In this document: positions 2,134-8,229 of the stretch, piece by piece
Position numbering within the stretch: the stretch's first letter is position 1
How the letters are laid out: the number at the start of each line of letters is the position of its first letter
The notes under the pieces: generated by a model
What the model was told of the DNA's origin: nothing
Database searches by the model: none
The model's input: the letters and a program-made list of their open reading frames with translations, nothing else
IMG/VR virus record: IMGVR_UViG_2645727970_000010
Location: 1-8,229 of that record
Strand: one strand, 5' to 3'
DNA length: 8,229 nucleotides
Source: a virus
Taxonomy: Duplodnaviria; Heunggongvirae; Uroviricota; Caudoviricetes
Translations under genes and position numbers: made by a program

Positions 2134-2325
2134 TTAAAGACCTGCCGGGATTTCGTTATTATCCTGGTGAATAACTTTATCGACCGGGTAACAGTTACCG
2201 GGAATTTTCTGTTCGGTTGCTGCAGTCACACACTCCTGCATTGTCCTGTGAACACTGACTGCAATATCAACTGGCTCTCCGGAAACAAGAAAAACTGTCA
2301 GAACAAGTGCAAATGCTGTATTCAT
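2134..2325 (-). CDS. Hypothetical small protein (63 aa) with N-terminal hydrophobic signal or membrane-anchor segment
   Basis: ATG at 2325 overlaps the upstream stop as ATGA (coupling). AAGGA-like SD 8 nt upstream. Sequence MNTAFALVLTVFLVSGEPVD... has a hydrophobic stretch and two Cys in the mature part. The track's 81-aa version starts further upstream without an SD. Confidence 0.45.
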   Translation of the reverse strand: MNTAFALVLTVFLVSGEPVDIAVSVHRTMQECVTAATEQKIPGNCYPVDKVIHQDNNEIPAGL

Positions 2326-2510
2326 TGCCACCATCCTTTTTGTATCGGACGTAAACGGGCCAGCATTGAAAGAATGCATATTTTATTTAATAGCTCCCGT
2401 TCTTGTTTTCTCTTGTTAATGGCATCTTCAGTAAATACTGGGTTACTGATAGTGACACCAATTTCAAAACAACCTTCAGACGTATTAACGTTTGGTAATA
2501 ACGTTTTCAT
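2322..2510 (-). CDS. Hypothetical small protein (62 aa), first gene of a leftward small-gene pair
   Basis: Internal ATG at 2510 preceded by GAGGA (complement of 2518-2522) at about 7 nt; the track's 97-aa start at 2615 has no SD. Stop at 2322-2324 overlaps the next start. Confidence 0.5.
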   Translation of the reverse strand: MKTLLPNVNTSEGCFEIGVTISNPVFTEDAINKRKQERELLNKICILSMLARLRPIQKGWWQ

Positions 2511-2546
2511 TATCGCGTCCTCAATAATGAATTTTGTGATGCAGTG

Positions 2547-2586
2547 CCTGGTGCCTCCAGGTGACGTTAACCAGTTAACAATTAAC
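2547..2586. repeat. Palindrome CCTGG-TGCCT-CCAGG followed by three TTAAC repeats at 7-8 bp spacing
   Basis: Read directly: cctggtgcctccagg at 2547-2561; GTTAAC at 2566-2571 and 2574-2579, ATTAAC at 2581-2586. Lies just upstream (minus sense) of the 2510 start; candidate regulatory site. Confidence 0.3.
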
Positions 2587-2858
2587 GCCGGATACAGAGA
2601 ATCCACCCATAACACTGTTTTTGGTTTTAACTGTTCCGCGTGCGCTCAGCCGCATTCACCGCATCACAAAATTCACTTTAAAAAGGGCGGACATCAGCCA
2701 GCAATGAAACTGATGCCGCCAAAGGTACCAATCAACATGGAGTGTTGTGGCAGGGGTGTCACTTAAGCGTATGGTCAACCTGACAACCCGGTGTCCTCAA
2801 CGGGGAAGGAATAACCCCGCCATACTTACCGCCGCGCCATTTCGCGGGTTGCCACAAC

Positions 2859-3548: not shown

Positions 3549-3701
3549 TCAGTCAGTGTTTCTGGCTAACCAGCAACGCGCGCCAGATTCGGTTTTAAAC
3601 GTTTTGCTTTTGGTATATGTCATCGCGGTGAACGTACCGTCTTGGTTGGGGAACACGGCACATACTAGAGATTCGCTGTTGCCAAGATCGATAGTATCCA
3701 T
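3549..3701 (-). CDS. Hypothetical small protein (50 aa), first gene of a two-gene operon downstream of the repressor
   Basis: ATG at 3701 preceded by GAGG at 5 nt; the track's longer form starts at GTG 3755 with no SD. Sequence MDTIDLGNSESLVCAVFPNQDGTFTAMTYTKSKTFKTESGARCWLARNTD. A competing antisense plus-strand ORF (3556..3780) exists. Confidence 0.45.
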   Translation of the reverse strand: MDTIDLGNSESLVCAVFPNQDGTFTAMTYTKSKTFKTESGARCWLARNTD

Positions 3702-3778
3702 GCTGACCTCATTTCCCCTTAACGCCGGGGTAGCGGAACTGTTTGCTGAGAACACCGTGCGGTGTCTTGATGGAAAGT

Positions 3779-3807
3779 AATTTAGAATAACCTAACATAA
3801 GAGGCAA
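3779..3807 (-). promoter_or_regulatory. Candidate leftward promoter (minus strand): -35 TTGCCT, 17-bp spacer, -10 TAAATT
   Basis: By-eye match on the minus strand; the -10 overlaps the 3781-3796 site and the -35 sits 10 bp from the 3817-3832 site, so repressor binding would occlude it. Weak consensus. Confidence 0.25.
3781..3796. promoter_or_regulatory. Candidate operator half-site pair TTTAGA-ATAA-CCTAAC (imperfect 6-4-6 palindrome)
   Basis: Matches the GTTAGA-N4-TCTAAC pattern at 5/6 per half-site; overlaps the -10 of a candidate leftward promoter. Confidence 0.45.
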
Positions 3808-3816
3808 GTGTTTTTT

Positions 3817-3832
3817 GTTAGATTGATCTAAC
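3817..3832. promoter_or_regulatory. Candidate operator GTTAGA-TTGA-TCTAAC (perfect 6-4-6), inside a 26-bp extended palindrome (3812-3837)
   Basis: Read directly; the arms extend as tttttgttagat / atctaacaaaaa. Confidence 0.5.
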
Positions 3833-3869
3833 AAAAAGAGTGGGCGCAACTAATCACTTGAAAAGAATG

Positions 3870-4277
3870 TTATTTTATTGATTTATTTTTACGCGCTTTA
3901 AGCATTTCTTCGAAGAGTTTGTTGAAGTTTTCTACTCTTGCGCGCATTTCAGACAGCAAGGCTTCCTGCTCGGAAGATGGAAGAGCATCGAATAATTCGA
4001 TCAATTCTTTGTGGTTGGGAGTTAGCTCTGTTTCCACATGAAGTTCTTGTGCCGGCACTGGTGCCTTGTCTTCGTCACCAAACATTAGCCATGTAGGTGA
4101 GCACTTCAGAGCATCCGCTAAAGCAAACAATCGTTTTCCGACTGGCTGGGTTTCGTCTCTTTCCCATTGTGAAATTGTGACGTGAGCAACTCCAGCGAGG
4201 CGCGCAGCTTCTCGTTGTGTTAAGCGTAATTCTTTTCGTCGCGCCAGAACTCGCTGGCCTAGGGTTCTTGTATCCAT
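3870..4277 (-). CDS. Prophage repressor, XRE-family HTH (CI/RacR-like), 135 aa, no S24 peptidase domain
   Basis: HTH signature LRLTQREAARLAGVAHVTISQWERDETQP. Divergent from a Cro-like gene with palindromic operators in the 77-bp spacer. No obvious SD; a TAGAAT -10 sits 9 nt before the ATG, suggesting a near-leaderless transcript. Too short and without the Ser/Lys motifs of an autocleaving repressor. Confidence 0.85.
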   Translation of the reverse strand: MDTRTLGQRVLARRKELRLTQREAARLAGVAHVTISQWERDETQPVGKRLFALADALKCSPTWLMFGDEDKAPVPAQELHVETELTPNHKELIELFDALPSSEQEALLSEMRARVENFNKLFEEMLKARKNKSIK

Positions 4278-4278
4278 A

Positions 4279-4294
4279 GTTAGGTAATTCTAAT
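4279..4294. promoter_or_regulatory. Candidate operator GTTAGG-TAAT-TCTAAT (imperfect 6-4-6)
   Basis: Two bp upstream of the repressor start codon; overlaps the candidate repressor-gene -10 (TAGAAT on minus strand). Confidence 0.45.
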
Positions 4295-4298
4295 TTTT

Positions 4299-4327
4299 CT
4301 TGACTTAGGTATCCCGCGCACAATAAT
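4299..4327 (+). promoter_or_regulatory. pR-like rightward promoter: -35 TTGACT (4299-4304), 17-bp spacer, -10 AATAAT (4322-4327)
   Basis: Near-consensus sigma70 hexamers with correct spacing, upstream of the Cro-like gene; the next operator starts right after the -10. Confidence 0.5.
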
Positions 4328-4343
4328 GTTAGAAAAGTCTAAC
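4328..4343. promoter_or_regulatory. Candidate operator GTTAGA-AAAG-TCTAAC (perfect 6-4-6) at the rightward promoter start region
   Basis: Read directly; abuts the -10 and covers the expected transcription start. Confidence 0.5.
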
Positions 4344-4357
4344 AAGAGGGGGCTTTG

Positions 4358-4585
4358 ATGCTTAAAGCTGACGCAATTACTTTTTTTGGCAGCAAAACAA
4401 AGCTTGCCAATGCCGCAGGAGTGAGACTGGCAAGTGTTGCTGCTTGGGGGATACTGGTTCCTGAAGGTCGCGCGATGCGTCTACAGGAGGCATCTGGCGG
4501 GGAGCTTCAGTATGATCCCAAAGTTTATGACGAATATCGTAAGACGAAGCGGGCGGGGCGGTTGAACAATGAAAATCACTCCTGA
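4358..4585 (+). CDS. Cro-like / YdaS-family small HTH regulator (75 aa)
   Basis: ATG at 4358 with AGAGGGGG SD 5 nt upstream. Sequence AITFFGSKTKLANAAGVRLASVAAWGILVPEGRAMRLQEASGGEL resembles the YdaS/Cro pattern. Position is right for the first rightward gene. Confidence 0.7.
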   Translation: MLKADAITFFGSKTKLANAAGVRLASVAAWGILVPEGRAMRLQEASGGELQYDPKVYDEYRKTKRAGRLNNENHS

Positions 4586-5090
4586 ACAGGCTTGTGAGGC
4601 TCTGGATGCCTGGATATGTCGACCAGGAATGACACAGGAGCAGGCGACGATATTAATCACTGAAGCATTCTGGGCTTTGAAAGAGCGCCCGAACATCGAT
4701 GTTCAGCGTGTCACATATGAAGGTGGCGCGGTTGATCAGCGAGCGCTTAGCGTTAATCGAGTGAAGATATTCGAACGCTGGAAGGCTATCGACACTAGGG
4801 ATAAGCGTGAAAAGTTCACAGCGCTAGTGCCTGCAATTATGAAGGCTATCCGGATTAGTGATTTCAGGTTGTATCGTGAGATCAGTGATGGAAAAAGTAT
4901 TACGTACATGATCGCCGGGTTAAATAAAGAATATGGCGATGTGGTGGAATCCGGACTACTTTTTGCAGATCCTGCCGTTGTAGATCGTGAAACTGACGAA
5001 CTTATAGAAAAAGCAATTGCTTTCAAGCTTGCGTATCGACAGCAATACCAACAAAAAGCTGGATGGAATTATGAGTCTTCTTTTTGCTGA
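4569..5090 (+). CDS. YdaT-like / CII-position protein (173 aa), function uncertain
   Basis: ATG at 4569 overlaps the Cro-like 3' end by 17 nt. Sits in the YdaT/CII slot between cro-like and the replication gene. Family assignment is from synteny, not a search. Confidence 0.55.
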   Translation: MKITPEQACEALDAWICRPGMTQEQATILITEAFWALKERPNIDVQRVTYEGGAVDQRALSVNRVKIFERWKAIDTRDKREKFTALVPAIMKAIRISDFRLYREISDGKSITYMIAGLNKEYGDVVESGLLFADPAVVDRETDELIEKAIAFKLAYRQQYQQKAGWNYESSFC

Positions 5091-7710: not shown

Positions 7711-7764
7711 TTTCATATTGGCGAGGTAACGGGAGTTAAGTAGAATGGCTGCGGGTGCTTGAGG

Positions 7765-7800
7765 CTATCTGCCTCAGGCATGAACACCAACGGCAGATAG
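7765..7800. other. Hairpin with 9-bp perfect stem (ctatctgcc / ggcagatag) and 18-nt loop
   Basis: Read directly. A second small hairpin gcgtc-ctgcaa-gacgc (7824-7839) is flanked by direct repeats TTAACATTA (7814-7822, 7840-7848). Could be IS terminus, transposase terminator or the small-ORF transcript 3' structure. Confidence 0.35.
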
Positions 7801-7862
7801 AGAAAAGCCCCAGTTAACATTACGCGTCCTGCAAGACGCTTAACATTAATCTGAGGCCAATT

Positions 7863-8229
7863 TCATGCTAGACACATGTAGGTTAGCCTCTTACGTGCCG
7901 AAAGGCAAGGAGATGTATGGGTCCACCACATATTGCAATTTTTATTCTCTTTTAAAATATATTCCACGGGCGTCATTAGTGCGAGCGCCTTGTGGGGTCT
8001 TTTGCTGTTATACAGCACCAGATATTCCGCCAGCTTCTGGTTAAATAGCGCCAGATCTTCAAAGAGTAAAATCTCATTAAATTCAATAAACTGCTCTCTT
8101 AACGTCCGGTTAAAACGTTCACAGATAGCGTTCATTTTTGGCGTGTAGGGATAGGTCCAGAGGTGTTTGATAGCGGCTTCCTGCAGCGTTTTGTCGAAGT
8201 TTCCCAGGAACTCTTTTCCGTTATCTGTG
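7863..8229 (-). CDS. DDE transposase, rve/integrase-core type (IS481-family-like), C-terminal part; N-terminus beyond window end
   Basis: Hand translation upstream of the track ORF gives ...TDNGKEFLGNFDKTLQEAAIKHLWTYPYTPKMNAICERFNRTLREQF...YNSKRPHKALALMTPVEY, carrying the second D (TDNGKEF) and the E (CERFNRTL) of the DDE triad plus the conserved YNxxRPHxxLxxxTP tail. Frame is open to position 8229. Confidence 0.8.
   Translation of the reverse strand, partial: TDNGKEFLGNFDKTLQEAAIKHLWTYPYTPKMNAICERFNRTLREQFIEFNEILLFEDLALFNQKLAEYLVLYNSKRPHKALALMTPVEYILKENKNCNMWWTHTSPCLSARKRLTYMCLA

What the first reader, a model, noticed from the sequence alone, without database searches (positions are those of the whole stretch)
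3781..4343. Immunity switch with four 16-bp operators of pattern GTTAGA-N4-TCTAAC
Four 6-4-6 palindromes sharing one half-site occur only around the repressor gene: two perfect (3817-3832 GTTAGA-TTGA-TCTAAC; 4328-4343 GTTAGA-AAAG-TCTAAC) and two 5/6-per-half-site versions (3781-3796; 4279-4294). The right pair brackets a near-consensus rightward promoter (TTGACT-17-AATAAT) and a candidate near-leaderless repressor promoter; the left pair overlaps a candidate leftward promoter. Unlike lambda, the left pair sits between the repressor gene and the small operon below it, so that operon would be repressor-controlled rather than co-transcribed with the repressor.
Basis: partly seen in the sequence, partly recalled or inferred. 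Interest (0 to 1): 0.55.

Follow-up and report, generated by a model that had tools for sequence, protein, structure and literature searches.

The report
DicA/DicC prophage immunity operators
The four palindromes are real and are almost certainly the repressor-binding sites of a Qin-like (DicA/DicC) prophage switch in E. coli, a kind of switch first described for E. coli K-12 in the 1980s, so this is a correct but ordinary find.

Summary
The window has exactly four matches to GTTAGA-N4-TCTAAC at two mismatches or fewer (3781, 3817, 4279, 4328; 0.25 expected). All four share the exact core TTAG-N6-CTAA (0.10 expected). They lie only in the two non-coding stretches flanking the 135-aa repressor gene.

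That repressor is a DicA homologue (57% identical to K-12 DicA). Its divergent partner is DicC (86%). The leftward operon is the dicBF early-left operon (ydfA-like gene, DicF-like RNA, dicB).

The sites sit at the same positions as the K-12 Qin operators. One of these, Oc (TTGTTAGTCATAACTAACAA), has been shown to bind DicA in vivo.

Across about 40 related loci the promoter/operator layout is constant, while the palindrome sequence changes together with the repressor's helix-turn-helix. A reverse scan of viral contigs for the motif recovered DicA/DicC gene pairs next to 33 of 120 hits.

The PR spacer is 16 nt, not 17.

Verdict: a new allelic member of a known kind, of low interest. The modestly novel residue is a possible recognition rule (Arg22 with the outer G) and cross-reactive DicC and Rem.

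The parts
4328..4343 (.). Oc-type operator (OR1 analogue). Perfect palindrome GTTAGA-AAAG-TCTAAC, lying directly after the -10 of the dicC promoter and covering its likely start point.
   Evidence: It is the positional homologue of K-12 Oc, which binds DicA in vivo (PMC3441716). A perfect or near-perfect palindrome is found at this position in 19 of the 33 related loci scored.
4279..4294 (.). Oa-type operator (OR3 analogue). GTTAGG-TAAT-TCTAAT, 1 nt from the dicA start codon, containing the candidate dicA -10.
   Evidence: The same position holds a TTAG-N6-CTAA core in K-12 and O157-type loci. K-12 Oa was reported not to bind DicA in vivo.
4304..4319 (.). Candidate vestigial middle operator (Om). 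Only the left half-site CTTAGG is kept; it overlaps the -35 and spacer of the dicC promoter.
   Evidence: Read by eye. The half-site at this position changes with immunity type (TTAGG in the window and O157 types, TTGAGA in type 4; a fuller palindrome in L012, L140 and L141). It is not found at 3 mismatches or fewer. Inference only.
3817..3832 (.). OL2-type operator. Perfect palindrome GTTAGA-TTGA-TCTAAC, 9 nt upstream of the -35 of the leftward promoter.
   Evidence: The operator motif defined from the right intergenic region recurs here with 0 mismatches, against 3-6 mismatches in loci of other immunity types.
3781..3796 (.). OL1-type operator. TTTAGA-ATAA-CCTAAC, overlapping the spacer and -10 of the leftward promoter.
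   Evidence: A type-specific operator lies inside the 17-nt spacer and -10 in 19 of 21 loci.
4300..4327 (+). PR / dicC promoter: TTGACT, 16-nt spacer, AATAAT.
   Evidence: 10 of 12 matches. The TTGACT -35 is conserved across immunity types.
3779..3807 (-). PL / dicBp-type promoter: TTGCCT (3807-3802), 17-nt spacer, TAAATT (3784-3779).
   Evidence: by position and conservation (TTGACC/TTGACG in relatives). It scores 8/12 and is below the threshold of the scan.
4287..4292 (-). Candidate -10 (TAGAAT) of the dicA promoter, giving a leader of about 0-4 nt. There is no good -35.
   Evidence: Sequence. No Shine-Dalgarno precedes the ATG. Yun 2012 found no consensus dicA promoter in K-12 and proposed activation by DicA at Oc. 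Inference.
3870..4277 (-). dicA homologue, a 135-aa repressor. The N-terminal HTH resembles P22 c2, and there is no S24 autocleavage domain.
   Evidence: Pfam HTH_3 only. 57% identical to K-12 DicA. P22 c2 N-terminal domain 1adr/2r1j, E 1e-18.
4358..4585 (+). dicC homologue (Cro analogue), 75 aa.
   Evidence: Pfam P22_Cro. 86% identical to K-12 DicC. P22 Cro 1rzs, E 9e-7.
4569..5090 (+). YdaT-family gene at the CII position.
   Evidence: Pfam YdaT_toxin. Annotated in the source record.
3549..3701 (-). ydfA-like gene (DUF1391), the first gene of the leftward operon.
   Evidence: Pfam DUF1391, 1.6e-25.
2685..2733 (-). DicF-like sRNA in the leftward operon.
   Evidence: Rfam DicF, 38.8 bits, E 9e-7. 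This is below the gathering score of 48, but the position is syntenic.
2322..2510 (-). dicB (cell-division inhibitor) in the leftward operon.
   Evidence: Pfam DicB, 4.9e-37.

Best explanation
The window is the immunity region of a Qin-like lambdoid prophage of E. coli. The four palindromes are the operators of its DicA-type repressor, shared with the Cro-like DicC.

Proposed mechanism (all inferred unless marked otherwise):
- DicA dimers use a P22 c2-like helix-turn-helix. Each dimer reads two 6-bp half-sites separated by four A/T-rich uncontacted base pairs.
- Binding to the perfect site Oc (4328-4343) covers the start point of the dicC promoter and shuts off the rightward early operon (dicC, ydaT-like gene, replication genes).
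- Binding to the perfect site OL2 (3817-3832) and the weaker OL1 (3781-3796) occludes the -10 and spacer of the leftward promoter. This keeps the dicBF early-left operon silent.
- The weaker site Oa (4279-4294) overlaps the probable near-leaderless dicA promoter. It would give negative autoregulation at high DicA, or shut-off of dicA by DicC once the switch flips.
- DicA has no RecA-dependent autocleavage domain, so induction would go through an antirepressor. A Rem homologue is present in the source prophage, outside the window.

Shown here: the sites, their statistics, the gene homologies, the positional homology to K-12 operators, and the co-variation of operator and repressor across relatives. 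Inferred by homology: actual binding, which protein prefers which site, promoter start points, and induction by Rem.
For: Site statistics: 4 sites against 0.25 expected, and an exact TTAG-N6-CTAA core in all four against 0.10 expected. There are no others in 19 kb of the source prophage.

Gene identities: DicA 57%, DicC 86%, plus DUF1391/ydfA, DicB and a DicF-like RNA. The synteny and insertion site match Qin, next to rspAB.

K-12 operators at the same positions: Oa abuts the dicA ATG, Oc follows the -10, and two sites flank the PL -35.

K-12 experiments: Oc TTGTTAGTCATAACTAACAA binds DicA in vivo, and a single A-to-C change in the CTAAC arm abolishes binding (PMC3441716). DicA represses dicBp, Rem relieves the repression, and DicC gives bistability (PMC10448788). 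DicC ChIP-seq shows binding on both sides of dicA with the motif TT(A/C/T)G...C(G/A/T)AA (PMC11430063).

Co-variation: at least 8 operator types track the DicA HTH sequence while the -35 and -10 positions stay fixed. A motif defined from the right intergenic region finds 0-3 mismatches (mostly 0-2) in its own type's left region, against 2-6 in other types.

33 of them have DicA and DicC homologues within 1.2 kb of the motif, including repressors only about 53% identical.

Geometry: the DicA N-terminal domain matches the P22 c2 N-terminal domain. P22 repressor contacts positions 2-7 and 12-17 of an 18-bp site and leaves the central 4 bp uncontacted (PMC4267663). This is the same 6-4-6 plan.
Against: No binding experiment exists for this allele. 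In K-12 the sites at the Oa and Om positions were reported (data not shown) not to bind DicA in an in vivo assay. The two imperfect sites here may therefore not be DicA operators in their own right. The PL -35 in this allele is weaker (TTGCCT) than in relatives, and the promoter falls below the scan threshold. The location of the DicA site at K-12 dicBp is still listed as unknown or low-evidence (PMC7567609). The dicA promoter has no recognisable -35, and no start point has been mapped.
Confidence: 0.9

Rival explanations
1. Only the two perfect palindromes are true DicA operators. The two imperfect sites (3781-3796 and 4279-4294) are mainly DicC (Cro) targets, or need cooperative help. The switch would then have one strong repressor site per promoter plus Cro-preferred sites.
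For: K-12 Oa was not bound by DicA in vivo. Oa is almost identical between the window type and the O157 type, whose DicC recognition helices are identical (VRLASVAAWG), while their Oc sites and DicA helix 2 differ. The DicC ChIP motif is just the shared core TTAG...CTAA.
Against: OL1 sits inside the PL spacer and -10 in 19 of 21 loci and changes sequence with the DicA type. That pattern is what a repressor operator should show. The K-12 negative result was for isolated sites without cooperativity, and the data were not shown.
Confidence: 0.3
2. The right region is tripartite, as in lambda and P22 (Oa, Om, Oc at 25- and 24-bp spacing). There would then be five or six operators, not four.
For: A half-site CTTAGG at 4304-4309 lies midway between Oa and Oc. 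The half-site at that position changes with immunity type, and it is a fuller palindrome in L012, L140 and L141. Three operators per region were proposed for K-12, as cited in PMC10448788.
Against: The right half of the putative Om in this window (CCGCGC) matches 2 of 6 bases, and the site is not found at 3 mismatches or fewer. K-12 Om did not bind DicA. There is no room for a middle site on the left, because the 20 bp between OL1 and OL2 hold the -35.
Confidence: 0.2
3. The palindromes are not protein operators. They would be chance inverted repeats or RNA hairpins, for example a terminator after dicA.
For: 3817-3832 lies 38 nt after the dicA stop codon and could fold as a 6-bp hairpin.
Against: 0 of 200 shuffles reach 4 sites. 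The stem is A/T-rich and is followed by an A-run, not a T-run, on the dicA strand, and the scan found no terminator there. The same motif flanks promoters on both sides of the gene and co-varies with the repressor HTH across loci. Rfam gives no hit in 3600-4400.
Confidence: 0.02

Closest known systems
Qin prophage dicA-dicC immunity locus of E. coli K-12 (operators Oc/Om/Oa and the dicBp operators)
   Same: The gene order is the same (dicB, DicF, ydfA on the left of dicA, with dicC divergent), and so is the chromosomal site next to rspAB. The repressor is also 135 aa and lacks a cleavage domain. Operator positions match relative to the dicA ATG, the -35 TTGACT and the -10. The core TTAG-N6-CTAA and the flanking TT...AA are shared. 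The Rem antirepressor is 96% identical.
   Different: DicA is only 57% identical. The half-site is GTTAGA rather than GTTAGY (positions 6 and 11 differ). Both principal sites are perfect palindromes here, whereas the upstream left site (the OL2 position) in K-12 is degenerate (GTATGC...GCTAAC). The prophage here is less decayed, with ydaT-like, replication, exonuclease, xis and int genes present. ydfB and ydfC are replaced by a 125-aa ORF.
Phage P22 c2 repressor / Cro with OR and OL
   Same: The DicA N-terminal domain aligns with the P22 c2 N-terminal domain over 68-71 residues (E 1e-18), and DicC aligns with P22 Cro. The site plan is the same: an 18-bp site with contacts at positions 2-7 and 12-17 and an uncontacted A/T-rich central 4 bp. 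The genes are divergent, with operator clusters at both PR and PL.
   Different: P22 c2 is 216 aa with a RecA-sensitive C-terminal domain, while DicA has a short, unrelated C-terminal region. The half-site sequence differs; from memory the P22 half-site is ATTTAAG. P22 has three clear operators per region.
Lambda CI/Cro switch (OR1-3, OL1-3, PRM, PR, PL)
   Same: The logic and topology are the same. The repressor and cro are divergent, the operators overlap PR and the repressor promoter, and a second operator cluster lies at a leftward early promoter downstream of the repressor gene. The repressor mRNA is probably leaderless, as for lambda cI from PRM (my own knowledge).
   Different: The repressor fold family and operator sequences differ. 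There are no rexAB genes, no autocleavage, two clear sites per region rather than three, and OL and OR are only 511 bp apart.
Gifsy-1/Gifsy-3 repressors GfoR/GfhR with LexA-controlled antirepressors
   Same: These are short repressors that are not cleaved and are inactivated by a small antirepressor protein. This is the comparison made for DicA and Rem in PMC10448788.
   Different: Homology to the Gifsy proteins was not tested here. The signal that induces Rem is unknown.

Membership tests
DicA/DicC (Qin-type) prophage immunity module | Repressor homologous to DicA over its full length (about 135 aa, N-terminal HTH_3, no S24 peptidase domain) | tested here: met
   135 aa and 57% identical to K-12 DicA across 132 residues, E 4e-55. 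Pfam finds only HTH-type families.
DicA/DicC (Qin-type) prophage immunity module | Divergently transcribed DicC (P22_Cro family) gene across a short intergenic region | tested here: met
   75 aa, 86% identical to K-12 DicC. Pfam P22_Cro. The intergenic region is 80 bp.
DicA/DicC (Qin-type) prophage immunity module | Inverted-repeat operator of the Oc type (TTGTTAG-N6-CTAACAA) between the -10 of the dicC promoter and the dicC RBS | tested here: met
   atGTTAGAAAAGTCTAACaa at 4328-4343, at the same position as K-12 Oc.
DicA/DicC (Qin-type) prophage immunity module | Repressor-controlled promoter downstream of dicA driving ydfA...dicF-dicB | tested here: inconclusive
   The genes and a conserved promoter with embedded operators are present. 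Repression itself was not tested for this allele and is shown only for K-12.
DicA/DicC (Qin-type) prophage immunity module | Physical binding of DicA and DicC to the sites | not testable with these tools
   This needs EMSA, footprinting or ChIP. Only K-12 data exist.
DicA/DicC (Qin-type) prophage immunity module | Rem-type antirepressor in the same prophage | tested here: met
   rem lies in the source record about 6.7 kb beyond the dicA gene, outside the window. It is 96% identical to K-12 Rem.
Classical lambda/P22-type CI repressor switch (SOS-cleavable) | Repressor carries a LexA-like S24 autocleavage and oligomerisation domain | tested here: not met
   There is no Peptidase_S24 hit and the protein is 135 aa. 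The literature notes that DicA lacks the cleavage site.
Classical lambda/P22-type CI repressor switch (SOS-cleavable) | Three operators in each of OR and OL | tested here: not met
   There are two clear sites per region. The right region has at most a half-site in the middle, and the left has no room for a third.
Classical lambda/P22-type CI repressor switch (SOS-cleavable) | Divergent repressor and cro genes with operators overlapping both promoters, plus a second cluster at PL | tested here: met

The most novel reading that the evidence does not exclude
DicA-family repressors may form a heteroimmune series with two properties.

(a) The residue after the invariant Gln21, at the start of helix 2, would read the outermost contacted operator base. 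Arg goes with G in every TQR locus that has a clear Oc palindrome (8 distinct sequences, all three helix-3 types seen among them). Ala or Ser goes with C, and Asn goes with A or T.

(b) Immunity would be type-specific while anti-immunity is not. DicC recognises only the shared TTAG...CTAA core. The window type and the O157 type have identical DicC recognition helices and nearly identical Oa sites. Rem is 96% identical between prophages whose DicA proteins are only 57% identical.

One Qin-like prophage flipping its switch or making Rem could then derepress heteroimmune Qin-like prophages in the same cell. Some E. coli genomes carry up to 8 matching places.
Probability: 0.3. Interest if true: 0.45.

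Novelty: new member of a known kind. Interest (0 to 1): 0.2.

Why it matters
The finding gives a confident, testable operator map for an immunity allele carried by about 10% of complete E. coli genomes. In one search, 561 of 5426 genomes hold at least 80% of the 1.2-kb region. The map also predicts where DicA acts at the dicBp-type promoter, a location still listed as unknown or low-evidence for K-12. The dicBF operon controls cell division, metabolism and phage resistance, so knowing which prophages share or differ in immunity specificity helps predict cross-regulation among the several Qin-like prophages in pathogenic strains. The finding does not reveal a new kind of system.

Tried and rejected
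- Rfam at gathering thresholds over the window, and at E up to 10 over 3600-4400, found no RNA family at the operators. An RNA-element reading was dropped.
- A terminator reading of 3817-3832 was rejected. The scan found no terminator there, and the hairpin is followed by an A-run on the dicA strand.
- The consensus promoter scan did not find the leftward promoter, which scores 8/12. I accepted the promoter only because its position and hexamers are conserved in 19 of 21 related loci.
- I looked for a third operator on each side at up to 3 mismatches and found none. The right-side 'Om' is kept only as a half-site candidate.
- The conserved PL leader (about 3702-3775, minus strand) was aligned and folded across 10 loci. 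RNAalifold gave a weak consensus with no compensatory pairs. A nut- or put-like role is therefore neither supported nor excluded.
- L022, a viral contig with four or five tandem copies of the same motif, has no DicA homologue by tblastn and no obvious repressor ORF nearby. I set it aside as unrelated or unexplained.
- A whole-genome motif scan of the host was not possible with these tools. As substitutes I used the 19-kb source stretch, an arithmetic expectation (12 fixed bases give about 0.3 sites per 5 Mb), and the viral-contig reverse scan.
Full report
**Observation.** Searching GTTAGANNNNTCTAAC with up to two mismatches gives four matches in the 8229-bp window. They are 3781-3796 (TTTAGAATAACCTAAC), 3817-3832 (GTTAGATTGATCTAAC), 4279-4294 (GTTAGGTAATTCTAAT) and 4328-4343 (GTTAGAAAAGTCTAAC). 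The chance expectation is 0.25, and no shuffle out of 200 reaches four. All four share the exact core TTAG-N6-CTAA, with 0.10 expected. Allowing three mismatches adds nothing. A 19-kb stretch of the near-identical source prophage holds only these four. The sites lie only in the two non-coding regions that flank the 135-aa ORF at 3870-4277 on the minus strand.

**What the locus is.**
- The 135-aa protein carries only helix-turn-helix Pfam families and is 57% identical over its full length to DicA of E. coli K-12.
- The divergent 75-aa gene at 4358-4585 is a P22_Cro-family protein, 86% identical to DicC.
- To the right follow a YdaT-family gene and replication-type genes.
- To the left lie a DUF1391/ydfA gene (3549-3701), a 125-aa ORF, a DicF-like RNA, dicB and a ydfD-like gene. 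The DicF-like RNA is at 2685-2733 and scores 38.8 bits, below Rfam's gathering score but at the syntenic place. dicB is at 2322-2510.
- The window is 99.9% identical to a stretch of an E. coli record in which this prophage sits next to rspAB and ynfAB. There it continues leftward into exonuclease, xis and int, and rightward to hokD and rem. This is the arrangement of the Qin prophage of K-12.
- About one in ten complete E. coli genomes carries this immunity allele: 561 of 5426 hold at least 80% of a 1.2-kb query.

**Comparison with the characterised K-12 system.** In K-12 the dicA-dicC intergenic region, read towards dicC, runs as follows. The dicA start codon is followed after one base by GTTAGCTAATGCTAAA (Oa). 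Then come TTGACT (-35), a spacer, a -10, and GTTAGTTATGACTAAC (Oc) flanked by TT and AA, then the dicC ribosome-binding site. The window has the same order and spacing:
- the dicA start codon;
- one base, then GTTAGGTAATTCTAAT;
- TTGACT at 4300-4305;
- a 16-nt spacer;
- AATAAT at 4322-4327;
- GTTAGAAAAGTCTAAC, followed by AA;
- GAGGGGG and the ATG of dicC.

On the left side K-12 has ATTAGCCATGACTAAC and GTATGCTATAGCTAAC around a TTGACC -35. The window has its two sites at the equivalent places.

K-12 Oc (TTGTTAGTCATAACTAACAA) was shown to bind DicA in an in vivo assay. Single-base changes in it, including A to C in the CTAAC arm, abolish binding. The same work reports that Oa and Om did not bind DicA on their own (PMC3441716). 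DicA represses dicBp, the antirepressor Rem relieves this, and DicC gives lambda-like bistability (PMC10448788). ChIP-seq of DicC shows its strongest binding on both sides of dicA, with a palindromic motif TT(A/C/T)G...C(G/A/T)AA (PMC11430063). That motif is the core shared by all four window sites.

**Comparative evidence generated here.** I collected 12 annotated loci from E. coli genomes and phages and 28 loci from one genome per species across Enterobacterales.
- The layout is constant. Oa abuts the repressor start codon, a TTGAC -35 follows, and a strong palindrome lies just before the cro-like gene.
- On the other side of the repressor gene the order is palindrome, 9-10 nt, -35, a 17-nt spacer containing a second palindrome, then the -10. 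This was seen in 19 of 21 loci.
- The palindrome sequence differs between groups and changes together with the repressor's helix-turn-helix. The groups are GTTAGA..TCTAAC (the window type), GTTAGY..RCTAAC (K-12 type), CTTAGG..CCTAAG (O157, Klebsiella, Enterobacter), ATTGAG..CTCAAT, CTTAAC..GYTAAG and others.
- A motif defined only from the right intergenic region finds its best match in the left region of its own type. Own-type matches have 0-3 mismatches (mostly 0-2), against 2-6 for other types. This test is independent of how the motif was defined.
33 of these have both DicA and DicC homologues within 1.2 kb of the motif. 17 loci carry the same allele (99-100% identical DicA; 16 of them with two sites 511 bp apart), and 14 have repressors only about 53% identical. 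The remaining hits are single and are presumably chance matches in a very large collection.

**Mechanism.** The DicA N-terminal domain aligns with the P22 c2 repressor DNA-binding domain (1adr, 2r1j; E about 1e-18), and DicC aligns with P22 Cro (1rzs). P22 repressor binds as a dimer to an 18-bp site. It contacts positions 2-7 and 12-17 and leaves the central four base pairs uncontacted, preferring A/T there (PMC4267663). The window's 6-4-6 sites, with A/T-rich centres (TTGA, AAAG, ATAA, TAAT), fit this plan exactly. From this I infer the following.
- DicA on Oc covers the start region of the dicC promoter.
- DicA on OL1 covers the -10 and spacer of the leftward promoter, which is TTGCCT 3807-3802, 17 nt, TAAATT 3784-3779.
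- OL2, just upstream of the -35, would be a strong anchoring site.
- Oa contains the only plausible -10 for dicA (TAGAAT, 4292-4287), 9 nt from the ATG, with no Shine-Dalgarno sequence and no good -35. This fits a near-leaderless, activator-dependent promoter as proposed for K-12. Oa would then serve for autoregulation or for shut-off by DicC.
- DicA has no S24 domain, so induction should be through Rem. The source prophage's Rem is 96% identical to K-12 Rem.

None of these binding or start-site statements has been tested for this allele.

From my own knowledge of lambda, OL/PL lies downstream of the cI-rexAB unit and drives a separate leftward early operon. The arrangement here is therefore the lambda/P22 one, not a departure from it. 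The 'small operon' is the long dicBF early-left operon. The PR spacer is 16 nt, not 17. No terminator-like site was found between dicA and the leftward promoter, so co-transcription by read-through is not excluded. The count of four may be slightly off in either direction. A half-site CTTAGG at 4304-4309 occupies the K-12 'Om' position and varies with immunity type. Conversely, the two imperfect sites may be bound mainly by DicC or only cooperatively.

**Novelty and interest.** The kind of system has been known since the K-12 dicA/dicC work of the 1980s, as cited. The K-12 Oc site is treated as a gold-standard binding site. I found no description of this particular allele's operators in the papers searched. 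It is a new member of a known kind, and a specialist would not be surprised.

Two by-products are mildly interesting.
- The residue after the invariant Gln21 tracks the outermost contacted base: Arg with G, Ala or Ser with C, Asn with A or T.
- DicC and Rem are much more conserved than DicA across immunity types. This suggests type-specific immunity but cross-reactive anti-immunity among co-resident Qin-like prophages.

Both are correlations from a modest number of lineages and need experiments.

Noticed in passing
window 3702-3775 (minus strand), the leader between the leftward promoter and ydfA: The leader is conserved across heteroimmune DicA-type phages. It has an invariant GTTCCGC and G+C-rich inverted repeats (GACACCGCACGGTGTT; CCCC-GGCGTTAA-GGGG). 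The more distant L012-type phages have a lambda boxB-like hairpin (GCCCG-GAAAGA-CGGGC) at the same place. It might be a nut- or put-like antitermination element. RNAalifold on 10 sequences gave a weak structure with no compensatory pairs, and Rfam gave no hit.
   Followed up: partly
window 7753-7919 (+) and 7863-8135 (-): There is a full-length match to the Rfam sok antitoxin RNA (111.9 bits). Its last 57 nt overlap the 3' end of an IS481-family transposase ORF that runs off the window. In the source record hokD lies on the far side of the IS, so the IS may have split a hok/sok module.
   Followed up: no
L022 2125-2226 (IMGVR_UViG_3300012020_000462): An A/T-rich viral contig carries four or five tandem copies of TGTTAGA-N4-TCTAACA at 23-24 bp spacing in a roughly 290-bp non-coding stretch. 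It has no DicA or DicC homologue by tblastn and no obvious repressor ORF nearby. The same operator-like word appears to be used by an unrelated element.
   Followed up: partly
L002 14896-15147 (source prophage, outside the window): The Rem antirepressor is 96% identical to K-12 Rem, although the two DicA repressors are only 57% identical. The DicA C-terminal part is the better conserved half. Either Rem targets the conserved C-terminal part of DicA, or it is mismatched to this repressor.
   Followed up: partly
window 4279-4320 versus L003 1399-1440: The stretch from Oa to the middle half-site is almost identical between the window type and the O157 type, and their DicC recognition helices are identical. 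Their Oc sites and DicA helix 2 differ. This looks like a recombination joint inside the intergenic region and a possible basis for DicC cross-reactivity.
   Followed up: no
L002 / NZ_CP090612.1: The best-matching record is labelled a 420-kb plasmid (pDCE7-1). Around the prophage it carries chromosomal genes (rspAB, ynfAB). It is probably a chromosomal segment or a mis-assigned replicon.
   Followed up: no
window 2478-2687 (-): There is a sub-threshold match to Rfam STnc100 (38.1 bits against a gathering score of 47). It lies immediately downstream of the DicF-like RNA and runs into the dicB start.
   Followed up: no
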